From Nitrospirota bacterium (GTDB taxonomy: Bacteria > Nitrospirota > UBA9217), in contig CAWFSF010000005.1 of NCBI GenBank assembly GCA_963818475.1, positions 288,001-352,000 of the forward strand: DNA of 64,000 nucleotides. Direction: 5' to 3'. The notes beneath the pieces are model-generated. The model did not search any database, was not told where the DNA came from, and was given only the letters and a program-made list of their open reading frames with translations. This document shows, one piece after another, positions 33,503 through 51,668 of this stretch; the first letter of the stretch is position 1; every line of letters begins with the position of its first letter. Both the position numbers and the translations under genes were made by a program.

Positions 33503-33554
33503 GATGACCTCATCTTTCTTTGACTGCCGCGGGTTTTATCCTATGACTAGGTCC

Positions 33555-35813: not shown

Positions 35814-35886
35814 TGTTATTAATTCCTTTCATAAGAACCGCAGCTCACGCTATAACCTCAGGCAATCTCATTTTTTTATCGGCGAA

Positions 35887-36489: not shown

Positions 36490-36550
36490 TAATTCCCCGT
36501 TAAATTTGGAGATGTCCTCGTGTCCATTTGGCAAGGTTTCCATGATATTT

Positions 36551-37366: not shown

Positions 37367-37375
37367 ATGCTCCTT

Positions 37376-37422
37376 ACAAAACGAGTTGAGCGGTTTTTAT
37401 CGGGTCGAGCGGCCCGTTAGCG
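37376..37422 (-). mobile_element. Short, degenerate attC-like site
   Basis: CGCTAAC GGGCCGCTCGACCCG...CCGCTCAACTC GTTTTGT, directly upstream of the next gene's RBS. Confidence 0.4.
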
Positions 37423-37739
37423 TCGATCGAGTCTTCTCTAAAAAAGCTGCCGTTTCAACAACGTGGGACATGGCGAGTAAATGGCCAGCATTGCTAACAA
37501 TATCACAGCCGTTCACCGGACACAAGAGCCACCATGCCGCCAAGCGAAGAGCCGCCAACAACATCGTTTTCGTTTATTGAATTATCTGATATAACTCGCC
37601 GGGCTACTTCTGCATAGGTTTTTTCGCCACGATAGTCAGGCCAATTGATGAAGCTAATCTCGAACCCAACCGTGTGCCGAAGCGCGTTGTACATTGATGC
37701 CGATGCGCCCATTCCGGGGAGGATAATCCATTTGCTCAT
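37395..37739 (-). pseudogene. Internally deleted alpha/beta hydrolase
   Basis: PGMGA...GGSSLGGMVAL joined, with a frame change, directly to the C-terminal AGHLLAMSH. Confidence 0.6.
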
Positions 37740-37758
37740 CGATTAGGCTCACTTTCAA

Positions 37759-37817
37759 AAATAACACGCGGGTGAGCCGCGTGCTCCTTAGCGACGGATT
37801 CGACGCACCTGTTAAAT
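37759..37817 (-). mobile_element. attC integron cassette recombination site
   Basis: ATTTAAC...ACGCGGCTCACCCGCGT GTTATTT; 59 bp, imperfect palindrome. Confidence 0.7.
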
Positions 37818-37876
37818 TCTACCAAAGACTAGCTCCACAGTCCTTAGGAGTTGGCAACCTTTCGTGTGATTTTCAT

Positions 37877-38755
37877 TTATGGGGCGCTTGGCCGAATGCC
37901 TACAACCCTTGGTTCAAATAGTTTACCATAATAAAGCCTAATTTTGTACGAGGGCTCATCTTTATGCGTATCTGAGGATGAATATACTGTAGTTACGCGA
38001 TGTCCGGCCTTTGTAATGATGTCTTCCAGTTCGGTGCTCATCGGTATCGGAACGTGCACTTCAGAAATTAGGATTTCGTTGATGTACCCTTCAAGCTTAG
38101 GCAATCCTTTATTATCACTGCCATATGGCTTGGCAAACTGAAGCCTGACCTTCGCGGCCATGATGATGAAATGACTGCGGTCTGGATATTGTAGCCGAAG
38201 TTTTACAGGATCCTTGCCCACGTCAACAGCGAATAATCGTGAACGGGTTTTCAGCATGCGCTCATATTCTTCTTTGGCTTCTTTCAAATCCTTATCAGTG
38301 GCAGTGCCATTCTTATGTCTTTCTGCTACGGCCGAAAGGCTGAGCCGTTCCTGCTTGACCAGTTCATCCCATGTTTTTCCATCATACTCCAGCACTACAT
38401 ATGCTTTCCGTGGCAGCAACTTTTCATAATGAATCGCTGCATTAGTATCTGCAAGCGGCACAGAACAATCAAAGCCTGCTTCCTCGAGTTTAGCTTTATC
38501 GAACCAGTCATACTGAGACTCACCGCTCTTTCCCAGGAGGAATCTTCCATAAAAAGGATATTGATTCCAGATCAACCTCAACGAAATCCCGGTATTTTCT
38601 CTTTTTTCCTGATAGACGTCGAGCGGCAATTCCCGCTCGGTAAGTTCGACGACGGCATCAGGTTCGCCCGAACGATTGAGTATTACGCTTGCAAGGACAA
38701 TGATATTAACCAGCACAAGCAGAGCGATAGCGATATAAAGTCCGTACTTTCTCAT
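37877..38755 (-). CDS. DUF4824-family protein
   Basis: NRSGEPDAVVELTEREL, WFDKAKLEEAGF, SRLFAVDVG, LYYGKLFEP. Confidence 0.75.
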   Translation of the reverse strand: MRKYGLYIAIALLVLVNIIVLASVILNRSGEPDAVVELTERELPLDVYQEKRENTGISLRLIWNQYPFYGRFLLGKSGESQYDWFDKAKLEEAGFDCSVPLADTNAAIHYEKLLPRKAYVVLEYDGKTWDELVKQERLSLSAVAERHKNGTATDKDLKEAKEEYERMLKTRSRLFAVDVGKDPVKLRLQYPDRSHFIIMAAKVRLQFAKPYGSDNKGLPKLEGYINEILISEVHVPIPMSTELEDIITKAGHRVTTVYSSSDTHKDEPSYKIRLYYGKLFEPRVVGIRPSAP

Positions 38756-39807
38756 GCTGCCACCTCCCGGTTGAGCGTCCGCAGCCGCTTCAGCATGATC
38801 AGGAGCAGGATGGCAACAAGTCCGATAAGGAGAAAGAAAAGATATTTCGGCATCCATTCCCACCACCAGTCATAGAATTTAGTATAGAGAAATATCGCAA
38901 AAAAAGTGCTGCCCAGGTTCGTGAGTCCCGTCCATTGGCGCGCAATACCCAGCCAGATAACGAGCCCGGAGGTAATGAAGCCCGCGATCTGGTAAAGGTA
39001 CTGCACGTGTTTGTGCGAAAGTGATAAGTAACTAATGTGGCCCCAGTTCGCGAGAATGAGCATTGAGATGAAGACTGCCAGTAAACCAAATACTCGATAG
39101 TGCGGCGGGAATTCATAAAAGGAGCGATGAGGGATGAAAGATATGGCGAAGAGAATAAGACCGGCTGCGATAAAATTCTCAGGCCGCTCGCCAAAATTTA
39201 ACCAATAACAACCGCTCCAGGTCCCGACAGTCGCCGATAGATACCCGGTAAGTGCAATGATTCCTGCCACGAGTAGTATTCTAAGACCATAGGTGTATGC
39301 CAGGATAAAAGCAAATAGCGCCCATGCAAGAAAGGCATTCTGTGACGGTGTGATGTTGAATATTTGGCCCAGCACACTCAGATTCAATACAAAGCAAGCG
39401 AACGCCACAAGGCCAATAATTGCGGAGAAGTAGAGGGTCTTCTCCTTTCGCGCTGCGACTTCAACGCCGAGTGCGGCAATCATGGGCGCGATGACGAGGA
39501 TAGCGACCTGAGATGGCGTGGAAATGAACCCCCAGATACGGTAAAAGAAGAAAAACATTGCCGCTGATATGGCTGCGGCGCCTAGAAATGAAATGATCCG
39601 CATACCCATAGACACCTGCCTCTGGGCGCTCGTTGTATCTATGTCGAATTGTCCAGCTAGCAAGCGGAGCATGTCATCGTGGTATTCGAAGAGATGACGC
39701 CGCTGGTCCTGGGGCAGAGAGAGGATTTTTTCCTTTTCCAGCGTTGTTAATTCAGCCTGAAAAGCACGAATGCGATCAGCCCGTTGCTGCGCTTGTTCCT
39801 TATGCAT
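38752..39807 (-). CDS. DUF2157-domain membrane protein
   Basis: AQQRADRIRAF, LGQIFNI, KFYDWWWEWMPKY; translationally coupled to the DUF4824 gene. Confidence 0.78.
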   Translation of the reverse strand: MHKEQAQQRADRIRAFQAELTTLEKEKILSLPQDQRRHLFEYHDDMLRLLAGQFDIDTTSAQRQVSMGMRIISFLGAAAISAAMFFFFYRIWGFISTPSQVAILVIAPMIAALGVEVAARKEKTLYFSAIIGLVAFACFVLNLSVLGQIFNITPSQNAFLAWALFAFILAYTYGLRILLVAGIIALTGYLSATVGTWSGCYWLNFGERPENFIAAGLILFAISFIPHRSFYEFPPHYRVFGLLAVFISMLILANWGHISYLSLSHKHVQYLYQIAGFITSGLVIWLGIARQWTGLTNLGSTFFAIFLYTKFYDWWWEWMPKYLFFLLIGLVAILLLIMLKRLRTLNREVAA

Positions 39808-39913
39808 AATCCTCCTGTGGCCCATCTCACGATATTGATATACTGCTTATTTCTGCTTTACCAACCACCTGCGATTTTACTTTTCGAAACGCCTGGTAAG
39901 CAGGAACGATGCG

Positions 39914-41122
39914 TCAGTCCGCGCTTACTCTTTGACGGCTTCGATGAACCATAATGCCCATTGCTGACGCCAGAATTATAAGACCAAAACCCACTACCGA
40001 ACGAGTAATGGGGACCCCTGAGGCATTCGCCAGAGAGTATCCGCCGAGGAACAGCAGCATGGCAAGGTTCTCCAAAAAGTTTTGAACTGCCAGAGCATTA
40101 CCCGCACCCACGGATTTATGTCCCGTTTCCTGCAGCAGGGCGTTGAGCGGAACCACGAACACGCCGCCGCAGAATCCGACCAGGACCATCAGGAGAGCGG
40201 CAGTCGTTAGATCGTTCACCGATGCCAGCGCAAAGATAACCGGGCCCAGAAGCACGCCGCCGATCAGCGCCCGGTTCGTGGTTTCCAGAGAGATCCAGAT
40301 TCCGGCGGCAGCGGCCCCGAGAACGATTCCGAGAGATACGATGCCCATCAAGCTCGCCGGCATCTGCGTATTTGTCACCGATAATGCTACCGGTACCCAG
40401 GCAAACAACAGCAGGCGCAATGTTACGCCACTACCCCAAAAGAGACTTGTGCCGAACAGGCTGAAGCGGGCATCCGGATCAGAAAACAGGGTCCTCAAAG
40501 AAGTAATAAAGTTCGGGATCAGCAGATGCGGACGAAAAGCGGTCATTGGCCGCTCCGAATCCAGACGCGGAATAAACAAGTTCGCACCTGCAGCCAGAGT
40601 ATAGGAAGCGATCACGCCCAGGAACGCCAGGTGTAGTGAATGATCGGTCAGCCAGCCGCCCAAAAGGACTCCCAGAAGAATGGCCACGATCGTGGAACCT
40701 TCCAGCATACCATTGGCCCGAACCAGGCGGCCGTGACTTACCAGTTGCGACAGGATGCCATACTTCGCCGGTGAATAAATCGTAGCGCCTATTCCGATCA
40801 AACTGTAAGCAATGAAGGGGTTGGGCACCGTTGCCATGACCAGAGCTCCCGTCAGCTTCAGCAAATTGGCAAACAGCATTACCCTCCCCTTCGGGTATCC
40901 GTCGGCGATAGGACCGGCAAATGGCGCCAGCAATATGAAAGGGAACACGAAGGCTGCCTGCAGGAAAGGTATCTGGTGGCCGTCGCCATTGGACCTGACC
41001 AAAGCAATGGCGAGAATCAGTACCGCGTTGTCCGCAAGGGCGGAAAAGAACTGGGCTGAAAGTACTGCCAGCATTCCAGGCGAAAGCAGTGAATGGTCCT
41101 GTTTTCCCGTGGTCGTTGTCAT
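39914..41122 (-). CDS. lplT: Lysophospholipid transporter (MFS)
   Basis: AQFFSALADN, PKGRVM, YSPAKYGIL, VPLNALLQ, AVQNFLEN; directly after aas. Confidence 0.9.
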   Translation of the reverse strand: MTTTTGKQDHSLLSPGMLAVLSAQFFSALADNAVLILAIALVRSNGDGHQIPFLQAAFVFPFILLAPFAGPIADGYPKGRVMLFANLLKLTGALVMATVPNPFIAYSLIGIGATIYSPAKYGILSQLVSHGRLVRANGMLEGSTIVAILLGVLLGGWLTDHSLHLAFLGVIASYTLAAGANLFIPRLDSERPMTAFRPHLLIPNFITSLRTLFSDPDARFSLFGTSLFWGSGVTLRLLLFAWVPVALSVTNTQMPASLMGIVSLGIVLGAAAAGIWISLETTNRALIGGVLLGPVIFALASVNDLTTAALLMVLVGFCGGVFVVPLNALLQETGHKSVGAGNALAVQNFLENLAMLLFLGGYSLANASGVPITRSVVGFGLIILASAMGIMVHRSRQRVSAD

Positions 41123-43260
41123 ATGGCCTCCGCCAGCAGCTTTAAGGTAACATAATCCACTTTGCCGGTTCCCAGGAGCGGCAGCGAGTCCACCCTATGT
41201 ATTTTCCGGGGAACCGCAAGCTCCGGCACTCCGAGCTTACGGACCGATTCGACAAGTGCTTCGCGGGTGAGCGCGACGGCGGTAGTAAACAGCACGATCG
41301 CCTCGCCTCGTGCGCCGTCCGGTTGTGTAGATACACCATGCATTGCTCCGGGTGCAGCCAGGTTTGCCGCCCGTTCGACGACTTCCAAGGATACCATTTC
41401 GCCTGCCACTTTGGCAAAGCGTTTTACGCGGCCAACGATGGAGAGGTACCCCTCGTTGTCGACGGTAACGATGTCGCCGGTCTCGTACCAACCATCGCCT
41501 GCTTTTGTAGCCGTAGGCTCAAGCTTGCCTGGTGCCTCGTACCGGTAGTAACCCGACATCAGGTTTGGTCCGCGCACGGACAGCATGCCGCCCGTTGTGA
41601 TCCCCGGGACCGGCTCCAGACGGTATTCGACGGCAGGCAGGAACTGTCCAACTGTGTCCGTTCTGTAGGCCATGGGTGTGTTGACGGCCAGAACCGGCGC
41701 AGTCTCCGTTGCCCCGTACCCTTCCAGGATGCGAATACCGAATTTCTCGAACCAATGCGTGCGTACTGACTCGGACAGTTTTTCTGCGCCGGCGACCACA
41801 TACCGGAGCCGATAAAAATCGTAAGGGTGTGCATACTTGGCGTAATTCGACAAAAACGTACCCGTGCCGAAGAGAATGCTGCACCCACGATCATAAGCGA
41901 TCTCGGGGATCACCCGGTAATGCAGGGGGGATGGGTAGAGAAAAAGGTTCATTCCCGTCATGATGGGCAAAAGCGCACCTGCGGTCAGGCCGAAGGAGTG
42001 AAAGATCGGCAGCGCGTTCAGCACCTTGTCATCGCTTGAGAAATCGATGACCGAACGGATCTGCGCGATATTGGCCAGCAGGGCTCTGTGGGAAAGTACG
42101 ACGCCCTTGGGCCTTCCTTCCGATCCGGACGTGAACAGAACGACAGCCGCGCTCTCGGGGTCTCCGTTTTTTTCGACCGCTCCCGGCAGCAGCATGCTTT
42201 TCAGTATCCAAAGTTTGTCACCCAGACCGATCTCCTGCTTGAGATCCTCAACGTACAAGATAGAAACATCCTGCAACGCTGCAATATCCCCTCCGATCTT
42301 TGCCTGCTCGATGAAGGCCCTTGATGCGAATATCGTTTTGATTCGGGCTGCTATGCAGGCATCCCGCATTCCCGAAGCTCCGGCCTTGTAATTCAGCATC
42401 GCAGGGACGCGGCCCAGGGCACTGGCGCCGATAAGCATGCCGACCGTTGCGGCAAGGTTCGGCATCAGGATCCCGACACACTCGCCGGGGGCACTGCGTT
42501 TTGCTATGAGACGTCCCAGGGCAAGGGTCATCTTGAGCAGGTCCGCGTAAGAATACTCGACTTGTTTCAGGTCCTCCACGATACGGCGGCGACGACCATG
42601 GATCGACATGGCGTTCAGCAGTCCTGCATAGAGAGTCTGCTTCGGCCGGGATTCGCAAAGCATCTTCTGCATGACGCGGCGCATTGCCTCTCCAGCCATG
42701 TGCCTCCGAGACCGTGCCGTGCCGCCTTCGGTCATCGTAAGCTTGGTCGGTGCCTGTATAGAAAGCGTGACTCGGGGAAAGAGTCTGCGCGGCTGCTGTT
42801 TCGAAAGACGGCTGAACCAGGACCGTGCAGGACCGTCGAGCCGCACCGGAAGGATCGTAGCACCTGTTTTCGCGGCCACGAATGCGGGGCCATCATAGAC
42901 CTTCATTAAGGACCCGGTCACGGTGATCCTGCCCTCGGGGAAAATCACAACGGGTCGTCCCTCTTCTATCAGTTTAATCACCTTCTTCACGGCCATGGGA
43001 TTGGTGGGATCCACGGCGAGATGGTCAACCTGGCTTAGCACCATCCGGAAGAATCGGTTGCGCGTTATGCCGGTATGCACCACGAAAACGGGATCAAAAG
43101 GGAGATAGAGTCCAAGGAAAAGACCATCCAGGAAGGATTCGTGGTTTGCGATGATCATCAAACGCGAAGAATCCACCTTGCCGGAAAACCCCTCGACTCT
43201 TACCCGAAAGAGTACCCGGAACAGCCATGAGAGTGTCCAACGAACTAATTTTCTTACCAT
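41119..43260 (-). CDS. aas: Bifunctional 2-acyl-GPE acyltransferase / acyl-ACP synthetase
   Basis: NHESFLD, FPEGR, FTSGSEGRPKGV, EGYGATE, GTGKVDY. Confidence 0.93.
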   Translation of the reverse strand: MVRKLVRWTLSWLFRVLFRVRVEGFSGKVDSSRLMIIANHESFLDGLFLGLYLPFDPVFVVHTGITRNRFFRMVLSQVDHLAVDPTNPMAVKKVIKLIEEGRPVVIFPEGRITVTGSLMKVYDGPAFVAAKTGATILPVRLDGPARSWFSRLSKQQPRRLFPRVTLSIQAPTKLTMTEGGTARSRRHMAGEAMRRVMQKMLCESRPKQTLYAGLLNAMSIHGRRRRIVEDLKQVEYSYADLLKMTLALGRLIAKRSAPGECVGILMPNLAATVGMLIGASALGRVPAMLNYKAGASGMRDACIAARIKTIFASRAFIEQAKIGGDIAALQDVSILYVEDLKQEIGLGDKLWILKSMLLPGAVEKNGDPESAAVVLFTSGSEGRPKGVVLSHRALLANIAQIRSVIDFSSDDKVLNALPIFHSFGLTAGALLPIMTGMNLFLYPSPLHYRVIPEIAYDRGCSILFGTGTFLSNYAKYAHPYDFYRLRYVVAGAEKLSESVRTHWFEKFGIRILEGYGATETAPVLAVNTPMAYRTDTVGQFLPAVEYRLEPVPGITTGGMLSVRGPNLMSGYYRYEAPGKLEPTATKAGDGWYETGDIVTVDNEGYLSIVGRVKRFAKVAGEMVSLEVVERAANLAAPGAMHGVSTQPDGARGEAIVLFTTAVALTREALVESVRKLGVPELAVPRKIHRVDSLPLLGTGKVDYVTLKLLAEAI

Positions 43261-43327
43261 GTTTCCTCCTGGTCGGGATAATGTACGTGATCTTTAATTC
43301 GTGAGACCCGACCGAAAATCAAATGTC

Positions 43328-44431
43328 TTAATAGGTGGCGATGGGTTCCTGGTCATGAATGCTACTATGCGATTTATGAGACGCTAAACATCCTGCTGCA
43401 CTGGTAAAGATCTCCGGTGTCACACCTAATGCTTTCTTGAGCGCCACATCACGGTCCCAGGGATTGGTAATCCGTGCGATAGTGATCATCTGCCGGAACG
43501 AAAGCAGGAACGGAAAGGCAAAAGAAGATACGATGCCGGTGTTGATAAGCGGCATATCAGTGCCGTAAAGAAGGCGGCCCTTCAGCTCTTGCTGCTTCAG
43601 AACACGCTGCAGTCGGCCGAGCCGGTTGATCTGCGTAAGGGAAGAGATATCGCCGTAGAGGTTGGGGTACTCGCGGCATAGACGGATAAAGCGATCATAA
43701 TTCGATTCCCCGTGACTGTGGCCGCTGCATGCGCTATGGGCTGCGATCACGGTCACTCCCAGGCTAAGGGGAAGGCGCAGCAGTTCCGGATCTCCCAACT
43801 CATCCTTCGACCTGGTAAAGGTCCGCTCCTCTCCCGTATGCGTAAGGAGCGGCAGGCCAAGGTCCTTGAGCCTCAGATAGAACGCAATGAGCCGTGGATC
43901 TGAGGGATCGATATTCTGGATCGGCGGCAACCATTTGACTAACACGGCCCCGTCTCGTGCCGCTTTCTCCAGGCGCTGGATAGCGTCCTTGCGATAGGGA
44001 TTGATGCTTGCACCGAAGAGGAGATTAGGATATTTCCGGATCTCTGTTGCAACAAAGTCGTTCGGGATGTACAGTTCCGTTTGCTGTAAATCGAGTTCGC
44101 CATTTTCTCCCACTACGCCGTCAATCGCTAAAACTACAGCAGAGGAAACAGACTGGGATCTAGAAAGGCTCTCTGATAGGCGTTTCAGGATCAAACCATC
44201 CCCTTCGCGAAGGAGGTCCTTCTCGGTAACGCCGAAGGACTTCAAGAATAGACGATACTTCCAACTACGCCGGATCGGTTCTGAGACAAAGCAGCCGCTC
44301 CCCCCTGCGCCGATACCGGCTACATGACAGTGCATGTCGATGACGCTTTGGCTTGCGTCAACAGTCGAGCAGAACCCGGCCAATGTTAGAACTAAACTTG
44401 AAATAGTAAATTTCCTCATTAAGATCCTCAT
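43328..44431 (-). CDS. Secreted amidohydrolase-2 family metalloenzyme
   Basis: IDMHCH, LLTHTG, IAAH, YGTDMP. Confidence 0.85.
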   Translation of the reverse strand: MRILMRKFTISSLVLTLAGFCSTVDASQSVIDMHCHVAGIGAGGSGCFVSEPIRRSWKYRLFLKSFGVTEKDLLREGDGLILKRLSESLSRSQSVSSAVVLAIDGVVGENGELDLQQTELYIPNDFVATEIRKYPNLLFGASINPYRKDAIQRLEKAARDGAVLVKWLPPIQNIDPSDPRLIAFYLRLKDLGLPLLTHTGEERTFTRSKDELGDPELLRLPLSLGVTVIAAHSACSGHSHGESNYDRFIRLCREYPNLYGDISSLTQINRLGRLQRVLKQQELKGRLLYGTDMPLINTGIVSSFAFPFLLSFRQMITIARITNPWDRDVALKKALGVTPEIFTSAAGCLASHKSHSSIHDQEPIATY

Positions 44432-44454
44432 GTTTACGTCAGTCCCCTAATCTA

Positions 44455-44472
44455 TTTCAAGTTGTGTGCCAG
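44455..44472 (-). promoter_or_regulatory. Putative sigma54 promoter of the amidohydrolase-aas-lplT operon
   Basis: CTGGCACACAACTTGA (TGGCAC-N5-TTGA), divergent from a GAFTGA activator gene. Confidence 0.65.
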
Positions 44473-44553
44473 CGACGAGCCACCAGCTATCATCATGAAA
44501 TGCTGTGCTTTTATTGTTGTCCACCGGCGTTGGTACAGGTTTAGATATTTAAA

Positions 44554-44583
44554 TTGACATAAATTGCACACATCATATACAAT
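44554..44583 (+). promoter_or_regulatory. Putative sigma70 promoter giving a leaderless mRNA for the activator
   Basis: TTGACA-N18-TACAAT, ending 7 nt before ATG 44590; no Shine-Dalgarno. Confidence 0.5.
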
Positions 44584-44589
44584 AAATGC

Positions 44590-46080
44590 ATGAAAGATAT
44601 CCAGCCAATATCCAAAGAAGAATGGACCTTTTTCGAGACTGTCGCCAGCGCCGCTTTTGCCAATCCCTTTGGCGAAAGACGTGACAGCTTGGACCGCAGC
44701 ATCGGAGGCGTTGGTGTCGATTCAACGGGCACGGAAATTATTCAGGCTGTAGTGGACCGCGTAGCGGCCCGCATGAAAGAGATAACAAGGAAAGGAAAGG
44801 CCGACCTGCGACAGTACGAGGGCAGTCGCCGCGAGCTGATTCGCCGTGTATTCTTATTCCACGTTTTCCACAGCTACACTGATCAGTTCGATGAGTTGAT
44901 TCAAGTCCAGGTGAAGAACGGTGACGTGCCCTGCCGCGTTGAGTTTTCTGACAAGGCATTGAGCGAGCTGCGTGCATTCGGGTTTTCAGAAGCAGATAGT
45001 CTGCGCTACTTTGCGGTGTTCTACCAGTTGCGCAGGGCGTATTACTTCATACGGAACGGCCTTGTCGGCAATTCTCCCTCCATGAAAGCTTTGCGGAAAC
45101 ACCTCTGGAACTGCGTCTTTACCCATGACATGAGCTGGTTCGAGGCGCGGCTCTGGAACCGGATGGAGGATTTCTCCATATTACTTCTGGGGGAGACAGG
45201 GACAGGCAAGGGTTCTGCTGCTGCGGCCATAGGACGGTCCGGATTCATTCCCTTCGATACGGGGAAAAAATGCTTCACCGAAACCATCAACCGAAACTTC
45301 GTCGCCATTAACCTTTCCCAATATTCGGAAGGCGTGCTGGAATCGGAACTGTTCGGCCACAAGAAAGGGGCATTCACCGGGGCTGTGGACAACCACGAAG
45401 GATTATTTAGCCGGTGCGCTCCCCATGGTACGATCTTCCTGGACGAGATCGGCGATGCGAGCATCCCGGTACAGATCAAGCTGCTTCAGGTGCTGCAAGA
45501 GCGGGTGTTTTTCCCCGTCGGGAACCACGAGGCACGGCGGTTTAGCGGCAGGATCATTGCAGCAACTAACAGGCAGTTGGATAAACTCCGGCGGGACGGC
45601 AAGTTCCGGGATGACCTCTACTTTCGCCTCTGCTCAGATGAGGTCGTTCTCCCGACCTTGCGGCAACGGTTCCAGGAGGATCCGCGCGAACTGGACCTCC
45701 TGCTCGAGAGCATTCTCTCTCGCCTCTACGGGGAGACGTCATCATCGAGAGTCGAGTCGCTGCAACATATCCTGCTACGCGACGTCGGAGCCGATTACCA
45801 GTGGCCGGGAAATGTGCGGGAATTGCAGCAGGCGGTAAAGAGGATTATCCTTACGGGAAGATACCAGGGGGAACAGGACCAGAGAAAAAGAGATGCAGCT
45901 GTGGCTAACAGTTTGACCGCTGGAATAACTGATTGCTCGTTCGACGCAGAGACACTTCTGGCTGAGTACTGCGCTTCGATTTACGAACGGTATGAGACCT
46001 ACGAGGAGGTTGCCAGAATAACGAAGCTGGACAGACGCACTGCTAAGAAATACGTCCAGATGGGATTTAAAAAGCCATAG
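44590..46080 (+). CDS. Sigma54-dependent enhancer-binding protein with unrecognised N-terminal domain
   Basis: GETGTGK, ESELFGHKKGAFTGA, FLDEIGD, FRDDLYFRL, WPGNVREL, C-terminal HTH. Confidence 0.93.
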   Translation: MKDIQPISKEEWTFFETVASAAFANPFGERRDSLDRSIGGVGVDSTGTEIIQAVVDRVAARMKEITRKGKADLRQYEGSRRELIRRVFLFHVFHSYTDQFDELIQVQVKNGDVPCRVEFSDKALSELRAFGFSEADSLRYFAVFYQLRRAYYFIRNGLVGNSPSMKALRKHLWNCVFTHDMSWFEARLWNRMEDFSILLLGETGTGKGSAAAAIGRSGFIPFDTGKKCFTETINRNFVAINLSQYSEGVLESELFGHKKGAFTGAVDNHEGLFSRCAPHGTIFLDEIGDASIPVQIKLLQVLQERVFFPVGNHEARRFSGRIIAATNRQLDKLRRDGKFRDDLYFRLCSDEVVLPTLRQRFQEDPRELDLLLESILSRLYGETSSSRVESLQHILLRDVGADYQWPGNVRELQQAVKRIILTGRYQGEQDQRKRDAAVANSLTAGITDCSFDAETLLAEYCASIYERYETYEEVARITKLDRRTAKKYVQMGFKKP

Positions 46081-46107
46081 CAAGTTTTGTCGGTAGAGCT
46101 ATAAATA

Positions 46108-46255
46108 TGTCGTATCAAGAAACAATTAAGTCGCTTGAAATATAGTATATAACCTATTGATTTTTGGCTCTCCAAAAAAACGCTTAAAAGCGCGAAGTCA
46201 CCGGCTTTCCCGACTACAAACAATAAAGTCGTCAAAATCGCAAACAATTAAGTCG
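46108..46255 (+). repeat. Left end: three spaced transposase-binding repeats plus an IHF box
   Basis: AAACAATTAAGTCG 46120-46133, AAACAATAAAGTCG 46218-46231, AAACAATTAAGTCG 46242-46255. Reverse-complement AATCAATAGGTTA at 46150-46162. Confidence 0.75.
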
Positions 46256-46369
46256 GCCCTTTTTTTGCTTTGGACGAAGCTCGCAATAAGAACAACCTCG
46301 TCGACTTCACCTACAAACCCGCATTTCCAGACAGACGAAACACTTGTCGAATTCTGTTTATAGCTTGCA

Positions 46370-46448
46370 CATGAACGCCTAAAGGTACGGCGTGGTTGAA
46401 ATCATCATGTTGGGTTTCGCCGTGATCTACGCGGCCTATTTGTTTTGC
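46370..46448 (-). mobile_element. Degenerate attC site
   Basis: GCAAAAC...ACGGCG...CGCCGT...GGC GTTCATG, starting 3 bp after the methyltransferase stop. Confidence 0.5.
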
Positions 46449-46451
46449 GGC

Positions 46452-47123
46452 TCACTTATGGGCTACAAATAAGGCATAGCTTCCGACTACGTCCACAGAA
46501 TATGTCGCAAAATTGGCGGCTAATATCCTTTCTAGATCATCAGCGTTATCTTGCAGATTGCTGAAAACCGAAAGCTTATTATATAGGGGATTGGCGTGCC
46601 GGAAGAGAAAACCAGCATCAACCCCCTGGCCGAGAACGGTAGCGCCAAAAAATACTCCGCCTTTATTCAGGAAACGATTAAGGTTCCTAAAAACGATTTC
46701 CTTGCCCAGCATACTGCCGGGAAGACAGTGGAGGAAATTCGCGGCGCCGATAGAATTGAAGATCGGCATATCCCCAGGATAGGGTTCCAGCACGTTCCAG
46801 TGGTGGGCGACGGAATGGTATCTGCTGATTCGGCCGGATGCTTTTTTCAGAGAATTGGTATTCAGGTCCATCAGGTGGACGATCGGATGGGCGACCGGGA
46901 ATCGGCACTTATCAAGAAAATAACCGGAGCCGACGCCTACATCGAGATGCATATCCGAGACATGCTTATTGTAAAGATCGAGTATTTTTTTAGCGGAACA
47001 TTTAAAAATGCACTGCATTTCTAAAATCAGGACTTCCCAATCATAGATAGACAAAAGGAAATTAGAGTATACGGCGGCGCCTGCAATTGCCTCCTTTGAT
47101 GCTGGAATGTCTTTTTGGACCAT
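46452..47123 (-). CDS. Class I SAM-dependent methyltransferase (cassette gene)
   Basis: HLDVGVGSGYFL, MDLN, FLHCLPG, FGATVLG. Confidence 0.85.
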   Translation of the reverse strand: MVQKDIPASKEAIAGAAVYSNFLLSIYDWEVLILEMQCIFKCSAKKILDLYNKHVSDMHLDVGVGSGYFLDKCRFPVAHPIVHLMDLNTNSLKKASGRISRYHSVAHHWNVLEPYPGDMPIFNSIGAANFLHCLPGSMLGKEIVFRNLNRFLNKGGVFFGATVLGQGVDAGFLFRHANPLYNKLSVFSNLQDNADDLERILAANFATYSVDVVGSYALFVAHK

Positions 47124-47147
47124 CACTTCTCCTTTGCAGCTATATGG

Positions 47148-47205
47148 TTTCAACACGCGAGTGAGCCGCGTGTTTTTCGCGGCCTACTCTAACCGCTTGT
47201 TGGAT
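47148..47205 (-). mobile_element. attC site
   Basis: ATCCAAC AAGCGGTTAGAG...ACGCGGCTCACTCGCGT GTTGAAA; 58 bp. Confidence 0.72.
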
Positions 47206-47254
47206 CATGCCGTCTATTTTCAGCTTTTATGAGACGGCCATGATAACAACTTCA

Positions 47255-48526
47255 TCAGGAAAAGAATCGCTTCTCTATCAGTTCGATAGCTTTTATAATT
47301 CCATTTTCCTTTTGCATCATCGCGCTGAGTTCTTCAGCTCTCTTTTTCATATTAGGATCGTCAAGAACTGTTCTTATGGCCTGGCCCAACTTGCGTGCCG
47401 TTATCTTTCTTCTGTGAAGCACATTTGTGGCAACACCCAGGCGCTGTAATTCGTTTGCATAAAAAGTCTGATCTCCAAAATGTTCAATGACAACCGATGG
47501 ACAGCCGTGAAGCAGTGCAGAATGAGTCGTACCCGCACCGCCGTGATGAACTACCGCGGAACAATAGGGAAAAATATATTGATGAGGCACGTTCTGGATC
47601 TTATATATATCGGGATAGTTGGGAAAGTCACGAAGTTCGTCCCACCGGGATTGGACAATGGCCCGGCATCCCGCAGACAATGCGCCCTGAACCAGGATTT
47701 TAGTAGTTATGTCCGGCGATGCGTCGAGAGAAAACATGCTGCCCAACGTTATAAAAACCGGTGGAGCGCCTGCTTCCAGAAACTGCTTCAAATTGCCAGG
47801 CATGGTCCATTTTTCAGCTGTGTTCGGGACAGTGAATACGCCACAAACATGATGATAGTCGGGCCAGTCCGGCTGTTTACGTCCGATTGCAGAAGTTTCG
47901 GCAACAAGGTTCAATTCTCTTGATATCCACACGGTATCTGCAATTTTCGAGGCTGGCGACAACCCAATCCTTTTTCTCAATTTATTCACTTCTAAACCGA
48001 TTGTACGATCTACTAAGTAATTAAACAATTTCCACCAAAAAGGGTTCATCCATTTCCCGAAATTGGGAACCCCAAAAATTGGGGTGTGCTTTGAATAGAT
48101 CCCGGCGTGGTTAAGCATCACGCTTGCGTAAGGCCTGTGCGCTTTTTCAGCAGCAGCTTGCACAGGGTAGTGGAGGAAGTGCCCAATGATTACGTCATTT
48201 TCGAGACAAAGCCGCTCTGCTGCGTCAAACATTTCCAATATAAGAGGATTAAAATAATACTCCAAGATAAGTTCAATTTGCTTGAGGGAATTAGGTGCTC
48301 CGATTATTTTGTCTTGAAAAAGACGAATTGTTTTATCATCATAGGTCAGCTTACCGATGTGTGATAAGGCAAAATTCATTTCTCTTCCGTAAGAGCTGTA
48401 ATCCTTGTTATCCACGCTCGTTACGACCATCGAAACGTCATGACCTCTGGTACGTAAGCCGCCTGCCAACGCAAGCAACGGGCGGATGTCACCATCACTG
48501 CCCCACGTTTGCAATCCGATCTTCAT
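47255..48526 (-). CDS. GT-B glycosyltransferase, GT1/sterol-glucosyltransferase-like (cassette gene)
   Basis: GSDGDIRP, VFITLGS, VPH..IFP, HHGGAGTT, FGDQ. Confidence 0.9.
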   Translation of the reverse strand: MKIGLQTWGSDGDIRPLLALAGGLRTRGHDVSMVVTSVDNKDYSSYGREMNFALSHIGKLTYDDKTIRLFQDKIIGAPNSLKQIELILEYYFNPLILEMFDAAERLCLENDVIIGHFLHYPVQAAAEKAHRPYASVMLNHAGIYSKHTPIFGVPNFGKWMNPFWWKLFNYLVDRTIGLEVNKLRKRIGLSPASKIADTVWISRELNLVAETSAIGRKQPDWPDYHHVCGVFTVPNTAEKWTMPGNLKQFLEAGAPPVFITLGSMFSLDASPDITTKILVQGALSAGCRAIVQSRWDELRDFPNYPDIYKIQNVPHQYIFPYCSAVVHHGGAGTTHSALLHGCPSVVIEHFGDQTFYANELQRLGVATNVLHRRKITARKLGQAIRTVLDDPNMKKRAEELSAMMQKENGIIKAIELIEKRFFS

Positions 48527-48535
48527 CTTTTTCTC

Positions 48536-48596
48536 CTGTAACGCGCGGATAAGACGCGATACCTCTCCGCGTCGTCCTCGATCCGCATCGTTAGAA
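48536..48596 (-). mobile_element. attC site
   Basis: TTCTAAC GATGCGGATCGAGGACGACGCG...CGCGTCTTATCCGCGC GTTACAG; 61 bp, right after the DUF4386 stop. Confidence 0.8.
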
Positions 48597-48599
48597 TCA

Positions 48600-49325
48600 T
48601 CATGAGGATTCACTTCGTTCTATCCGACCTGCCGACTTGGAAGCGATTGCAGTAGGATTGAATCCTTTAACGATCAGCCATATTGACATAACCAGTTCTT
48701 GCAAGCCTATTGGAGGCGCAAAATAAGCCATGGCCTTCATCAATGGCATAGCACCGAATATATCGAACATGTGTAACAATGCACCTATTGATAAAAGAAC
48801 AGCTGCCAAAAACCCCCAACCTGATAGCCAACGAGGAATAAGCTTGGATTTAAATAGTAAATAGTAAAACAGAATAGCGCCTAAAGTATAAACGATTATA
48901 TAAAGCAGCGTGGCCCATTCTGTTCTTGCGTGAATTGAATTACCCAATACTTGGAAATATGAATCAGGCGGAGCTCCTGAGTGTAAATAGTCCTGACTTA
49001 AACTGATAAGTGACAGTGAGTTGATAGTGAGAAAAATATGGAGAACGCCCTCGAGGAGCCTGAAAACAACATACCCAAGCGCTATTCTTTCATTAAATAT
49101 TTTAAACAGGGGAAACAACATGATTGGAATCAGAATCATGGCAGGAGCACAAATGAAATCAAGTAGTATTCCTATTTTCACCGGAATTTTATTTGGATAT
49201 ACATTAACAATATAGTCCGGAGCATTGAGAATGGGTCGATAAATATTTGAAGCCACAATATTAAAGACAAGCGCAATTAGAAATAATACTCCTACACTTA
49301 TTGCGGTTTTTCTGTATGAATTCAT
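48600..49325 (-). CDS. DUF4386-family membrane protein (cassette gene)
   Basis: RKTAISVGVLF, LGYVVFRLLEG, SKLIPRWLSGWG, ELVMSIWLIVKGF. Confidence 0.85.
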   Translation of the reverse strand: MNSYRKTAISVGVLFLIALVFNIVASNIYRPILNAPDYIVNVYPNKIPVKIGILLDFICAPAMILIPIMLFPLFKIFNERIALGYVVFRLLEGVLHIFLTINSLSLISLSQDYLHSGAPPDSYFQVLGNSIHARTEWATLLYIIVYTLGAILFYYLLFKSKLIPRWLSGWGFLAAVLLSIGALLHMFDIFGAMPLMKAMAYFAPPIGLQELVMSIWLIVKGFNPTAIASKSAGRIERSESS

Positions 49326-49347
49326 TATTTCTCCTTTTTGTTCTTAC

Positions 49348-49467
49348 GTATAATCTCGGCGGTAAGCAGCCAGCCCCTGCAGGGGCGATCCGGCCGTCGG
49401 AACGCGAAGCGCTGAGGGAACCTGCAAGCCCAGCTTGCAGTTGGTCCGGTTGACCGAGAGATTAGGC
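49348..49467 (-). mobile_element. Long attC-like site with non-canonical AAT/ATT core
   Basis: GCCTAATCTCTCGGTCAACCGGACC...TGCAAGC-TGG-GCTTGCA...GCTTACCGCCGAGATTATAC; 120 bp. Confidence 0.65.
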
Positions 49468-49737
49468 CACGACACCAGGGGCATTAACGACACTCAGCAA
49501 CCACTGGCCTTGCGTGCCAGCGAGGTACTCGTTCCGATATTGGCAAAAGGCCGGATCCAGCGTCGATAGGGACGCCGCCGACCTTCCATAAGCAACTGAT
49601 GGATCTATGCTTTGAACCTTGGTATCCACCCGGAATGCGGGACACTTTTCGTTCCAAATGAAGCGCGTTCCAGGAGTCACGAATATGCCGGTTAAGTAGG
49701 AGAGACTCCGATCAGCCTGCGGCTCTTTCCAACGTGC
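49462..49737 (-). pseudogene. 5'-truncated cassette ORF
   Basis: Open frame ARWKEPQADRSLSYLTGIFVTPGTRF...GVVA; its TAA lies in the attC R'' box and it is cut at the element's right end. Confidence 0.5.
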
Positions 49738-49746
49738 TTAATTTGG

Positions 49747-49855
49747 AACTTAATTGTTTGTCTAAAATAAACTAGAGGGAGTTTTTAGATGACTTAATTG
49801 TTTAACGATGACTTAATTGTCTAAGTTACGACTTAATTGTTTCTCCATAGAGGCA
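49747..49855 (-). repeat. Right end: four transposase-binding repeats, three of them contiguous
   Basis: (G/A)ACTTAATTGT at 49747, 49791, 49810 and 49830; terminal CA at 49854-49855. Confidence 0.78.
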
Positions 49856-49861
49856 AAATCC

Positions 49862-51498
49862 TCAGCTCTCGCACGCAAGCTTCGCAAGCTCCTCCGAAAA
49901 CATCTCGAAATTGACCGAATAATCTACCGGGCATTCGATCACGACGAGCTTCTTCAGGGCAAAAGCGTCCCGCAGGACCTTCGTAAGATCGTCCCCTTCG
50001 CGCACCTTCACCCCCACCGCGCCGAAGCTCTCGGCGTATTTCGCAAAATCGGGATTCCGGTAATCGAGGCCGAAGGCCGGGAATCCCTTGGCCTGCTGCT
50101 CCCACTTGATGAACCCGAAAGCATTGTCGTTCAGGATAAGCACGACCAGCGGGATGTCATATCGGAGGGCTGTTTCCAGTTCCTGCGAATTCATCATGAA
50201 ACCGCCGTCGCCCACCACGGCAAGCACCTTCCGGTCCGGCCGGAGCATTTTCGCGGCGATGCCGGAAGGCAGCCCTGCGCCCATGGTCGCCAGGGCGTTG
50301 TCCAGCAGGAAGGTGTTGGGCTTGTACGTGCGGTACAGCCGCGAGAACCAGAGCTTGTAGATGCCGTTGTCCAGGGTCAGGATGTCCTCGTGCGCCAGGA
50401 CCTCGCGAACGTGCCGGACGATATCCTGCGGCGTCAGTGGGTATTGTTTGTTGAATTCGATCGAAAGTTTTCTGTCCAGGAATTCACGGACCTCCCGGAA
50501 GGTCTTGTCGCTCTTCCGGTCGGCCACCAGTTCTCCCAGCTGCTGCAGCGAGCAGGAGATATCGCCGATGACCTCGATGTCCGGGTTGTAGTACGTGTCC
50601 ACATCAGCGCCGCTGAAATCGATATTGATGATCTTCTTGTCGAGATTTCTGTTCCAGACGTAGGGCGGATATTCAACGATGTTATACCCGATGGTGATGA
50701 TCAGGTCGGCCCGGTCGATGCCGCAGTTGACGTAATCGCGCCGGTGGATCCCGGCTGCGAAGAGGCTGTAGTCCGATGCATCGCTCAGCACGCCTTTTCC
50801 CATCTGCGTGTGCACCACATGGATGCCGGTCTTGTCGATGAACTGCATGAGCTGCTTCGTGATCAGGTTGCGGTTCGCGCCTGACGACAGGATGATGAGC
50901 GGGTGCTTCGCTTTGTTGATCAGGTCGGCGGCGCGCAGGATCGCCTTGCGGTCAGGCGCGGGCCTCCGCACATAGACCCCGTTTCTGGATCTTTGCATTC
51001 GGTCTCGCTTTCGGCCACGTCCTCGGGCAGTTCGATGTGGACCGCGCCCGGACGCTCCGCCTGGGCAAGCTTGAACGCGTTCCGCAGCACCGTGGGGATC
51101 TCGCCCGGATCGATGATGGAAACGGCATCCTTGGTGAGCGGCCGCATGACGCTGACGATATCGATGAGCTGGAAGCGGGCCTGACGGTTCTCGCGCAGCG
51201 CCTTCTGGCCCGAGATGGAAATGAAGGGCGCGCCGATCAGCTGCGCATGGGCGACGCCGGTCACGAGGTTCGTCGCGCCCGGTCCGAGCGTGGAGAAGCA
51301 GACGCCGGCCTTGCCGGTCAGCCTTCCGTAGGTGGCTGCCATGAAAGCGGCTGCCTGTTCATGCCGGGTGATGACGACCTTGATGGACGACGTGCGAAGC
51401 GATTCGAGCAGATCGAGGTTCTCCTCGCCCGGCAGGCCGAAAATATATTCCACTCCTTCTTCTTCAAGCTGCCGCACGAACAGGTCTGATGCTTTCAT
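49862..51498 (-). CDS. Acetolactate synthase large-subunit-like TPP enzyme (one indel)
   Basis: FGLPGEEN, RHEQAAAFMA, TLGPGATN, GDGGFMM...LNDN. Confidence 0.92.
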
Positions 51499-51668
51499 GA
51501 ACACTCCTGAAAATAAAAGTTACCGCCGAGACACGGAGAAAGGCGAATGGCAACACCTTTGACACGGATCAGCACGGAGAACAGCTATGATAACGGCGGA
51601 TTGAATCCGCATCTATCATATTTAAAATCCGCCCTTATCCGTGTCAAAGAATTTGTGCTTCTTTCGAT

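What the first reader, a model, noticed from the sequence alone, without database searches (positions are those of the whole stretch)
46108..49855. Non-autonomous Tn7-like mini-transposon whose entire cargo is an integron cassette array
Seen: the ends share AGAAACAATTAAGTCG in inverted orientation and terminate TG...CA. The left end has 3 spaced copies of AACAATWAAGTC (46120, 46218, 46242). The right end has 4 inverted copies (49747, 49791, 49810, 49830), three of them at a 19-20 bp period. The 5-bp flanks are AAATA and AAATC. Inside are four co-oriented ORFs, each followed by an attC, with no transposase or integrase gene. Known: Tn7 has 3 spaced TnsB sites at its left end and 4 clustered at its right, a similar core (GACAATAAAGTC) and a 5-bp target duplication; Tn7 and Tn402 carry class 2 and class 1 integrons. 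Inference: this is a minimal cassette shuttle, mobilised in trans, that moves integrase-less arrays between loci.
Basis: partly seen in the sequence, partly recalled or inferred. Interest (0 to 1): 0.88.

Follow-up and report, generated by a model that had tools for sequence, protein, structure and literature searches.

The report
Gene-less Tn7-type transposon carrying integron cassettes
A 3.7-kb stretch is a stripped-down relative of transposon Tn7 that has lost its own transposition genes, sits at its family's docking site just after an acetolactate synthase gene, and carries only integron gene cassettes, so cassette arrays without an integrase could in principle be moved as a block.

Summary
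The repeats are real: seven copies of AACAATTAAGTC, three spaced on the left and four clustered on the right.

- **Transposon family:** a relative in another genus (G014) has the same end architecture at the same place. There it flanks tnsA, tnsB, tnsC and two tnsD genes close to prototypic Tn7.
- **Docking site:** five right-end termini (L071, L095, G014, a G003 relic and this window) lie 11-12 nt after the acetolactate synthase stop codon.
- **No helper genes:** the element and the assembled genome (91% complete) have no tns homologue.
- **Cargo:** two of the four claimed attC sites score about 45 bits with a model trained only on sites next to integron integrases of relatives. The third is an internally deleted remnant and the fourth is unconfirmed. 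The same cassettes occur in other orders elsewhere.
- **Corrections:** The AAATA/AAATC flanks are not a target duplication.
- **Not shown:** movement in trans. This genome also has 27 other attC loci.

Verdict: a new variant of a known kind, of moderate interest.

The parts
46113..46255 (+). Left end of the element. It starts TAT, and the first TnsB-type repeat core begins after 9 nt. The three repeats are at 46121-46132, 46219-46230 and 46243-46254.
   Evidence: The 98/24 spacing is the same as in the G014 left end. The X1 contig joint starts at 46113.
49747..49849 (-). Right end. The four repeats are at 49747-49758, 49791-49802, 49810-49821 and 49830-49841, and the terminus ...ATA is at 49849.
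   Evidence: It is 80% identical to the G014 right end over 105 nt. The 9-nt rule comes from 19 loci. X1 and X2 contigs stop at 49848 and 49847.
49462..49680 (-). Small 72-aa ORF, hypothetical and possibly non-coding. It is the first unit of the array.
   Evidence: It has no Pfam, NCBIfam or Atlas match. In run X1 the same unit follows letters that I read as the 3' end of an attC, with the break at 49677.
49349..49468 (-). Imperfect 120-nt palindrome in the place where the first unit's attC should be. It is not confirmed as an attC.
   Evidence: It has AAT/ATT in place of AAC/GTT, no hit with R1 or R2 and fold z -1.15 on the coding strand.
48600..49325 (-). DUF4386 membrane protein cassette.
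   Evidence: Pfam PF14329, E 1.3e-35. A 90% identical copy lies next to the methyltransferase cassette in G010.
48534..48598 (-). Canonical attC of the DUF4386 cassette.
   Evidence: R1 68.5 bits (it was a training site). The independent model R2 gives 45.2 bits, E 2.4e-10. Contigs of X2, X3 and X4 break at 48544-48547.
47255..48526 (-). GT1-family glycosyltransferase cassette. The likely start is the ATG at 48526.
   Evidence: Pfam EryCIII-like_C and UDPGT. NCBIfam macrolide and rifamycin glycosyltransferase models match only far below their cut-offs. This cassette is absent between the two neighbouring cassettes in G010.
47146..47207 (-). Canonical attC of the glycosyltransferase cassette.
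   Evidence: R1 64.2 bits (training site). R2 gives 44.1 bits, E 4.9e-10. DNA fold z -4.0.
46452..47123 (-). SAM-dependent methyltransferase cassette. The likely start is the ATG at 47123.
   Evidence: Pfam Methyltransf_12. It is 91% identical in G010. In run X4 it lies upstream of the glycosyltransferase cassette, with 80 letters between them.
46368..46403 (-). Internally deleted attC remnant. The R'' and R' boxes are kept and the L boxes are lost. A scrap of a DUF4386 gene end precedes it.
   Evidence: Compared by eye with the full site in G056 and with the G010 junction. R2 gives 8.9 bits, E 9.3, which is not significant.
46303..46377 (-). A 75-nt unit that starts at the GTT of the last attC. 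It recurs after an attC in other genomes and its function is unknown.
   Evidence: Homologous to G012:C54:41-115 and G007:C9:62520-62584. A similar unit follows an attC in G056.
49862..51504 (-). Acetolactate synthase large-subunit gene, whose 3' end is the attachment site. The stop codon lies 12 nt from the right terminus. Here the gene is split by one extra base near 50975.
   Evidence: Pfam TPP_enzyme_N/M/C on two ORFs. The G014 orthologue matches NF006187 at 799.5 bits against a cut-off of 509.

Best explanation
Window 46113-49849 is a non-autonomous member of the prototypic-Tn7 clade. It keeps a complete left end (three TnsB-type sites over about 140 bp) and a complete right end (four sites over about 100 bp) but has no tnsABCD genes. 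It sits with its right end 12 nt after the stop codon of an acetolactate synthase gene. Autonomous and other relatives use the same site in the same orientation, presumably through a TnsD-type selector that reads the 3' end of that gene. Its cargo is a short integron cassette array without an integrase (a CALIN): a small unit of unknown coding status, then DUF4386, glycosyltransferase and methyltransferase cassettes, all reading from the right end towards the left end.

Shown: the end anatomy, the shared attachment site, an autonomous relative with matching ends, the lack of a helper in this assembly, and that at least two sites are true attC of the type used by this bacterial family's integrons.

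Inferred: a helper's TnsA and TnsB could cut it out, and TnsC with TnsD could place it at another acetolactate synthase 3' end. An integrase acting in trans could add, remove or reorder its cassettes.

Open: whether it ever moved in this stripped form, or lost its genes where it sits.
For: Ends:
- Seven repeats against 0.27 expected by chance.
- The only cluster in the genome.

Autonomous relative G014, same family but another genus:
- Right-end repeats with the same 19-20 spacing lie 11 nt after the acetolactate synthase stop.
- Left-end repeats have the same 98/24 spacing.
- Between them are TnsA (PF08722), TnsB, TnsC (TniB/AAA_22) and two TnsD/TniQ proteins.
- TnsB matches PDB 7pik Tn7 TnsB at E 8e-95, and TnsC matches 8glu Tn7 TnsC at E 9.1e-68.
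- The right ends are 80% identical.

Attachment site:
- Termini lie 11-12 nt after the stop in the window, G014, L071, L095 and the G003 relic. Single repeats follow the stop in G016 and G023.
- An X2 contig shows the same arrangement, about 10 nt by my reading of its loose end.

No helper:
- TniQ gives 0 matches.
- tblastn with the five G014 Tns proteins gives no hit at 1e-3.

Family mobility: an X1 contig joins a right end (49848) to a left end (46113) with 6 letters between them, which means tandem copies.

Cassettes:
- A1 aligns 10 sites. AAC and GTT are invariant and 6 of 18 pairs show compensatory change.
- Model R1 finds 17 co-oriented sites at E up to 1e-4 in 100 kb next to five integrase genes. 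It finds 1 new site in 160 kb and 1 in 133 kb of other loci.
- Model R2 was trained only on those 17 sites. It scores the two window sites at 45.2 and 44.1 bits.

Cassette order differs elsewhere:
- G010 has DUF4386 then the methyltransferase, without the glycosyltransferase.
- X4 has the methyltransferase before the glycosyltransferase.
Against: - There is no target-site duplication. With the corrected termini the flanks TGTCG and GAGGC match at 0 of 5 positions.
- The termini read TAT...ATA rather than the TGT...ACA seen in L071, L095, L073 and the G003 relic. Changing TGT/ACA to ACT/TGA immobilises a mini-Tn6022 (PMC11014353, passages read). However, the G014 inner left end and its right end also read TAT/ATA.
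- No second copy of this mini-element was found in the genome, in 64 genomes of the family or in two collection scans.
- No empty site was found. DNA to the left of the element has no counterpart in five genomes of the same genus.
- Only 2 of the 4 attC sites are verified.
- attC sites are scattered over 27 loci of this genome, so cassettes may have entered the element where it sits.
- Orphan end clusters exist. G061 has a four-site right end with no tns gene among the 10 ORFs I scanned in the 12 kb inside it.
Confidence: 0.85

Rival explanations
1. It is an immobile fossil. An autonomous Tn7-type element inserted after the acetolactate synthase gene long ago, lost its tns genes and most of its cargo by internal deletion, and has never moved in its present form. 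Its ends may no longer be cut.
For: - There is no target duplication, and the termini are TAT/ATA.
- No second copy was found anywhere searched.
- G003, of the same genus, keeps a 14-nt relic of the right terminus at the same place. That fits an old insertion decaying in the genus.
- Synteny breaks exactly at the right end.
- Relics and orphan ends are common: G016, G023, G061 and G056.
Against: - All seven repeats are intact, with 0-1 mismatch to the consensus, and the spacing is preserved.
- The spacer between the stop codon and the terminus is poorly alignable between the window and G003, although the gene is 92% identical. That fits separate insertions better than one old one.
- TAT/ATA also bounds the tns-bearing unit in G014, with 4 of 5 matching flanks, CAAGG and GAAGG.
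- Run X1 holds the cassettes at 95-99% identity together with a tandem right-left joint of the same ends.
Confidence: 0.35
2. The cassettes are not travelling cargo. An integrase acting in trans inserted them into an already resident, nearly empty mini-element, as it did at many other places in this chromosome.
For: - There are 47 attC matches in 27 loci of the genome: 11 co-oriented clusters and 16 singles. One single lies 8 kb to the left, at window 37757-37819.
- The attC type is the one used by this bacterial family's own integrons.
- An integrase-like fragment lies next to one cluster on contig C6.
Against: This does not conflict with the identification; it only changes the order of events. 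In G056 a similar terminal module (a DUF4386 gene scrap, an attC and the 75-nt unit) lies about 450 bp from relics of the same end repeats. That hints the module and the ends have travelled together.
Confidence: 0.3
3. The ends belong to a Tn402/Tn5053-type (TniABQ) element, the family that carries class 1 integrons, rather than to Tn7.
For: That family also has arrayed repeats at its ends and makes 5-bp duplications (recalled, not tested). The left flank begins TGTCG, as I recall those ends do.
Against: - The relative with the same repeats has a TnsA endonuclease and two TnsD proteins.
- Its TnsB and TnsC match Tn7 proteins at E 8e-95 and 9e-68.
- TGTCG lies outside the conserved end.
Confidence: 0.02

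Closest known systems
Tn7 and Tn7-like transposons with a TnsABC core and a TnsD target selector
   Same: - The ends are asymmetric, with three spaced sites on the left and four clustered sites on the right.
- The first repeat core starts 9 nt from the terminus. An Escherichia coli plasmid Tn7-like element shows the same (TGT, 9 nt, then repeats at a 20-bp period about 60 bp before tnsA).
- It inserts just downstream of a conserved gene, with the right end nearest the gene.
- The autonomous relative's TnsB and TnsC are close to those of Tn7.
- Dual tniQ/tnsD genes, as in G014, are common: 1,048 of the loci surveyed in PMC10293859 (passage read).
   Different: - This element has no tns genes.
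- Its termini are TAT/ATA and it has no duplication.
- Its attachment gene is an acetolactate synthase. 'Acetolactate' does not occur in the main texts of PMC8649781 or PMC10293859. A search for Tn7, TnsD, attachment site and acetolactate synthase found 0 papers. Supplements were closed, so the site may be listed there.
Integron cargo of Tn7-like transposons (the class 2 integron of Tn7; survey in PMC8649781)
   Same: The paper states that 10% of 6,549 Tn7-like transposons hold an intact or partial integron, with 2,334 cassettes in all (passage read). Cassette arrays inside Tn7-type elements are therefore known.
   Different: - By its description, that survey delineated transposons that encode the transposase, so stripped elements like this one would not be counted.
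- Here there is no integrase, no attI and no resistance cassette that reaches a curated cut-off.
- From recall, the array reads towards the left end, opposite to the class 2 integron in Tn7.
CALIN (cluster of attC sites lacking an integron integrase), as defined for IntegronFinder
   Same: - Two verified co-oriented attC sites lie 1.3 kb apart.
- No integrase is nearby or in the assembly.
- The ORFs are co-oriented, and each has its attC at the 3' end.
   Different: It is bounded by transposon ends. IntegronFinder itself could not be run, and the definition is recalled.
Laboratory mini-Tn7 and mini-Tn6022 elements
   Same: They consist of the ends plus a payload and are moved by proteins supplied in trans. 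About 150 bp of each end is sufficient (PMC11014353, passages read).
   Different: Those are engineered. This one is natural, and its mobility has not been tested.

Membership tests
Tn7 family transposon | Arrays of TnsB-binding repeats: few and spaced at the left end, more and clustered at the right end. | tested here: met
   Three left and four right repeats with conserved spacing. The architecture is the same in G014.
Tn7 family transposon | Cognate tnsA, tnsB, tnsC and tniQ/tnsD genes. | tested here: not met
   They are absent from the element and from the 91%-complete genome, so the element is non-autonomous. They are present between the same ends in G014.
Tn7 family transposon | Terminal TGT...ACA. 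| tested here: not met
   The window has TAT...ATA at 46113 and 49849. TGT/ACA is seen in L071, L095, L073 and the G003 relic. TAT/ATA is also seen in the G014 inner unit.
Tn7 family transposon | 5-bp target-site duplication. | tested here: not met
The flanks TGTCG and GAGGC match at 0 of 5 positions. G014 flanks match at 4 of 5.
Tn7 family transposon | Site- and orientation-specific insertion downstream of a conserved gene. | tested here: met
   The right terminus lies 11-12 nt after the acetolactate synthase stop in the window, G014, L071, L095 and G003. An X2 contig shows the same, at about 10 nt by my reading.
Tn7 family transposon | TnsB binds the repeats and the element transposes. | not testable with these tools
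   This needs EMSA and a mating-out assay.
Integron cassette array / CALIN | attC with paired R''/R' boxes (AAC...GTT), an unpaired spacer, an L box with a bulged base, and a variable stem. | tested here: met
   Met for 2 of the 4 claimed sites. In A2, 11 of 18 pairs show compensatory change and AAC/GTT is present in 17 of 17 sites (A2 was fitted to the model).
Integron cassette array / CALIN | The sites belong to the class recombined by integron integrases. | tested here: met
   The model built from window-like sites finds co-oriented arrays next to 5 of 5 integrase genes sampled. The reverse model, trained only on those arrays, finds the window sites. Recombination itself was not tested.
Integron cassette array / CALIN | Cassettes occur as separable units in other contexts, with breakpoints at attC. 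| tested here: met
   G010 has a different arrangement. X4 has a permuted order, and X2, X3 and X4 contigs break at 48544-48547.
Integron cassette array / CALIN | No integron integrase nearby. | tested here: met
   TIGR02249 has no match over its cut-off in the genome. Within genus g1 the count is 0 of 6 genomes, this one included. Across the family it is 28 of 64.
Tn402/Tn5053 family | A TniA, TniB, TniQ (and TniR) module without TnsA. | tested here: not met
   The relative with these ends has TnsA and proteins of the Tn7 clade.

The most novel reading that the evidence does not exclude
The element is a working two-tier vehicle. Integrases shuffle single cassettes in and out of it. A helper Tn7-type element in the same cell then moves the whole integrase-less array, in trans, to the acetolactate synthase site of new genomes. 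Stripped Tn7 elements would then be one route by which cassette clusters without integrases arise and spread. While resident, the element could also use target immunity to block the docking site against full-size relatives.
Probability: 0.2. Interest if true: 0.65.

Novelty: new variant of a known kind. Interest (0 to 1): 0.5.

Why it matters
Cassette arrays without an integrase are common, but how they arise and move is unclear. Here one such array is framed by complete transposon ends at that transposon family's own docking site. That gives a concrete and testable route for moving a whole array without any integrase.

The work also brings out a Tn7-clade lineage that docks 11-12 nt after an acetolactate synthase gene. 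My searches did not find this attachment site in print. A new, precise TnsD-type target could interest people who use Tn7 systems for insertion.

Two things limit the interest. Integrons inside Tn7-like elements are already documented at scale. And in this genome cassettes are scattered over many loci, so the link between transposon and cassettes may be incidental.

Tried and rejected
- **Empty allele.** No genome among 40 relatives has the activator gene next to the acetolactate synthase gene. Window 33.5-46.1 kb has no counterpart in five genomes of the same genus, so the site before insertion could not be rebuilt.
- **Other copies of the ends in this genome.** None were found.
- **Helper genes in this genome.**
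  - The rve matches are 8 places. I read only L001, which I judged to be an IS-type HTH-rve protein and not TnsB.
  - The PF08722 search found nothing, but its control rang in no genome, so it counts for little. I rely on tblastn instead.
- **BLAST of the four candidate attC sites against integrase-adjacent arrays.** This gave only weak hits, so I switched to covariance models.
- **Promoter for the array inside the right end.** The scan found no site there, and overall no more sites than in shuffles (7 against 7.0).
- **The 72-aa ORF.** It matched no family and gave no usable Atlas hit.
- **Sequencing runs.** No run held more than 0.16 of the sampled words. No contig spans the whole element and no contig joins across it, so no empty site was seen. 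Parts without cover mean nothing.
- **G061.** I expected an autonomous element. It is a right-end cluster beside ordinary genes.
- **Prototypic Tn7 for a tested comparison.** The plasmid hit I opened (L096) is a Tn7-like element, not Tn7 itself. The end sequence and gene order of Tn7 in this report are recalled.
- **The search of earlier findings.** It was closed.
- **Supplementary files.** These were closed. Lists of attachment sites in PMC8649781 and PMC10293859 may bear on whether the acetolactate synthase site is new.

Full report
**1. What is in the sequence**

The region 46108-49855 has a lower G+C content (about 0.38-0.50) than its flanks (0.55-0.65).

The motif AACAATWAAGTC, with up to one mismatch, occurs 8 times in the 64-kb window. 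Chance would give 0.27, and none of 100 shuffles reach 8.
- Three copies are on the plus strand at 46121, 46219 and 46243.
- Four copies are on the minus strand at 49747, 49791, 49810 and 49830.
- One stray copy with a mismatch is at 49206.
- The terminal inverted repeat runs 46113-46133 / 49829-49849, is 21 nt long and is 90% complementary.
- In the whole 4.66-Mb assembly (7 contigs, 91% complete) this is the only cluster. The other 24 matches with up to one mismatch are scattered singles.

Between the ends lie four minus-strand ORFs:
- a 72-aa ORF with no family match;
- a DUF4386 membrane protein;
- a GT1 glycosyltransferase (EryCIII-like_C and UDPGT);
- a SAM-dependent methyltransferase.

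None is a transposase or an integrase. To the left is a sigma-54 activator gene. To the right, ending 12 nt from the repeat end, is a thiamine-diphosphate enzyme gene. Its G014 orthologue matches the NCBIfam acetolactate synthase large-subunit model NF006187 at 799.5 bits, against a cut-off of 509.

**2. It is a Tn7-family element at its family's docking site**

A DNA search of 40 relatives showed that the synthase gene is conserved. In G014, which is the same family but another genus, the match runs on into the right-end repeats.

G014 has the following features.
- Right-end repeats with the same 19-20 spacing lie 11 nt after the synthase stop.
- About 33 kb away there is a left end with three repeats at the same 98 and 24 spacing.
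- Between the two ends are TnsA (PF08722), a 651-aa TnsB, a TnsC (TniB/AAA_22) and two TnsD/TniQ proteins, along with defence-type cargo.
- TnsB matches Tn7 TnsB in the PDB at E 8e-95, and TnsC matches Tn7 TnsC at E 9.1e-68.
- A second, inner left end abuts a block of four different repeats, so several elements appear to be stacked there.
- The window's right end is 80% identical to G014's over 105 nt. The left ends are about 67% identical.

The same end motif pair is found in 19 stretches of a species-wide genome collection. These are labelled Nitrospirota, Paraburkholderia, Rhodocyclaceae, Bacteroidota, Acidobacteriota and others. It is also found in 2 metagenome contigs and in 4 of the 64 genomes of this bacterial family.

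Right ends next to the synthase stop codon occur in L071, L095, G014 and the window. G003 has a 14-nt relic there, and G016 and G023 each have a single repeat. Five of the nine relatives inspected (G005, G001, G004, G019, G024) have nothing there.

**3. Where the ends really are**

Across those loci, the terminus lies 9 nt beyond the outermost repeat core and usually reads ...ACA. An E. coli plasmid Tn7-like element annotated with TnsA, TnsB, TnsC and TnsD shows the same rule: TGT, 9 nt, then repeats.

Applied to the window, this rule gives termini at 46113 and 49849. Three observations agree with that.
- The inverted repeat stops exactly there.
- A contig of run X1 joins 49848 to 46113 with six other letters between them. 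This is a right end abutting a left end, as in tandem copies.
- A contig of run X2 leaves the window at 49847 and continues into another synthase 3' end.

The corrected flanks, TGTCG and GAGGC, do not match at all.

The window's termini read TAT...ATA. That differs from TGT...ACA at one position. The inner unit of G014, which holds the tns genes, also has TAT/ATA, with flanks matching at 4 of 5 positions. Whether such ends can be cut is unknown. A paper on Tn6022 made a mini-element immobile by changing TGT/ACA to ACT/TGA (PMC11014353, passages read).

**4. It is non-autonomous**

- TniQ gives no match in the genome.
- The TnsA domain search found nothing, but its control was silent everywhere, so it carries little weight.
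- tblastn with the five G014 proteins finds nothing at 1e-3.
- Of the 8 rve matches, the one I read is an IS-type protein.
- The assembly is 91% complete, so a helper could sit in the missing part.

**5. The cargo is integron cassettes, but not four clean ones**

Short matches showed that the two intergenic sequences at 48534-48598 and 47146-47207 recur in many relatives. I aligned these two with eight homologous sites to make alignment A1.
- AAC and GTT are invariant.
- The predicted fold has an R box, an unpaired spacer, an L box with a bulged base, and a variable stem.
- 6 of 18 pairs show compensatory change.

Integron integrases (TIGR02249 over its cut-off) occur in 28 of the 64 genomes of the family. 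None occurs in the 6 genomes of this genus, the window's own included.

The model built from A1 (R1) was run on 100 kb next to five integrase genes that were not used in training.
- It found 17 sites at E up to 1e-4.
- All lie on the strand expected for an array leading away from the integrase. Ten of them form one array.
- In 160 kb and 133 kb of other loci it found one new site each.

A second model (R2) was trained only on those 17 sites. In that alignment 11 of 18 pairs show compensatory change, although the alignment had been fitted to the model. R2 scores the two window sites at 45.2 and 44.1 bits. This is the independent test, and the two sites pass it.

The site after the methyltransferase is a remnant. 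It keeps the R'' and R' boxes but lacks the middle, and a scrap of a DUF4386 gene end precedes it. R2 gives it 8.9 bits, which is not significant.

The 120-nt palindrome after the small ORF has AAT/ATT where AAC/GTT should be. Neither model hits it.

**6. The cassettes behave as separate units**

- In G010 the DUF4386 cassette (90% identical) is followed directly by the methyltransferase cassette (91% identical) through one attC. The glycosyltransferase cassette is absent from that position, and a 78% homologue lies elsewhere in that genome.
- In run X4 a contig places the methyltransferase cassette upstream of the glycosyltransferase cassette, with 80 letters between them.
- Contigs of X2, X3 and X4 all leave the window at 48544-48547, within a few bases of the GTT of the attC.
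- In X1 the small first unit follows letters that I read as the 3' end of an attC.

**7. Context that lowers the surprise**

- R1 finds 47 sites at E up to 0.001 in this genome. They fall into 27 loci: 11 co-oriented clusters and 16 singles. One single is at window 37757-37819.
- An integrase-like fragment lies beside one of the clusters.
- Cassette DNA is therefore scattered through a genome that has no intact integrase, and the transposon holds just one of the clusters.
- The literature already reports that 10% of 6,549 Tn7-like transposons carry an intact or partial integron (PMC8649781, passages read).
- I found no paper describing a natural gene-less Tn7-type element with cassette-only cargo. 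I searched 'Tn7-like' with 'attC' and 'integron', and 'Tn7-like' with 'non-autonomous' (listings and one passage read).
- I also found no paper naming an acetolactate synthase attachment site. Supplements were closed.

**8. Verdict**

The identification as a non-autonomous Tn7-clade element with an integrase-less cassette array, sitting at a family-specific site, is well supported (confidence 0.85).

Whether it has ever moved in this form is open. For movement:
- all seven repeats are intact;
- tandem joints of the same ends occur in another sample;
- the spacers between the stop codon and the terminus differ between genomes.

Against movement:
- there is no duplication;
- the termini are unusual;
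- no second copy was found;
- relics and orphan ends occur in relatives.

It is a new variant of a known kind and of moderate interest.

Noticed in passing
window 37757-37819 (-): A lone canonical attC (R1 43.2 bits, R2 38.1 bits) lies just downstream of a DUF4824 gene, 8 kb left of the element and outside any transposon ends.
   Followed up: partly
G000 whole genome, e.g. C6:1941802-1951974 and C6:1745976-1748620: There are 47 attC matches in 27 loci (11 co-oriented clusters and 16 singles), although no integron integrase reaches its cut-off. An integrase-like fragment at C6:1772162-1772398 (-) lies beside a plus-strand attC cluster that starts at C6:1773752. This looks like a decayed chromosomal integron.
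   Followed up: partly
window about 50975 (gene 49862-51504, -): The acetolactate synthase gene is split into two overlapping ORFs by one extra base relative to G003. This is either a frameshift or an assembly error. The orthologue in G014 is one 555-aa ORF.
   Followed up: partly
L025:7585-7680 (G014:C11): Four copies of a different 17-nt repeat, arranged like another Tn7-type end, abut the inner left end. Elements of two families appear to be stacked at one site.
   Followed up: no
window 46303-46377 (-); L067:41-115; L066:221-285; L092 about 555-630: A 75-nt unit starts at the GTT of an attC and ends with a shared motif. It recurs in four genomes followed by unrelated DNA. It could be the flank of the original insertion site or a small non-coding unit.
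   Followed up: partly
L081:6410-6890 (MAG labelled Christensenella): About 480 bp carry three forward and at least three reverse copies of the same repeat motif with almost nothing between them. This is a possible miniature, cargo-less derivative of the family.
   Followed up: no
L093:12429-12535 (G061:C9): A complete four-site right end with the same spacing sits between a pseudouridine synthase gene and an MFS transporter gene. None of the 10 ORFs I scanned in the 12 kb inside it is a tns gene. It is an orphan end.
   Followed up: partly
L092:3775-3860 (G056:C1): Another Tn7-type right end, with a different repeat, abuts a sequence that looks like a tRNA gene. I did not run the tRNA finder on it. 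About 450 bp from relics of the window-type repeats lies a DUF4386 gene scrap followed by an attC (30.8 bits).
   Followed up: partly
window 33500-46107: About 12.6 kb to the left of the element (MFS transporter, acyltransferase/acyl-ACP synthetase, DUF2157/DUF4824, hydrolases, the activator) has no counterpart in five genomes of the same genus. Synteny with G003 resumes only to the right of the element.
   Followed up: partly
window 46150-46162; L025 about 340-352 and about 7735-7747: A short motif (AACCYATTGA) between the first and second left-end repeats is conserved in all three left ends compared. It might be a host-factor site or an extra binding site.
   Followed up: no
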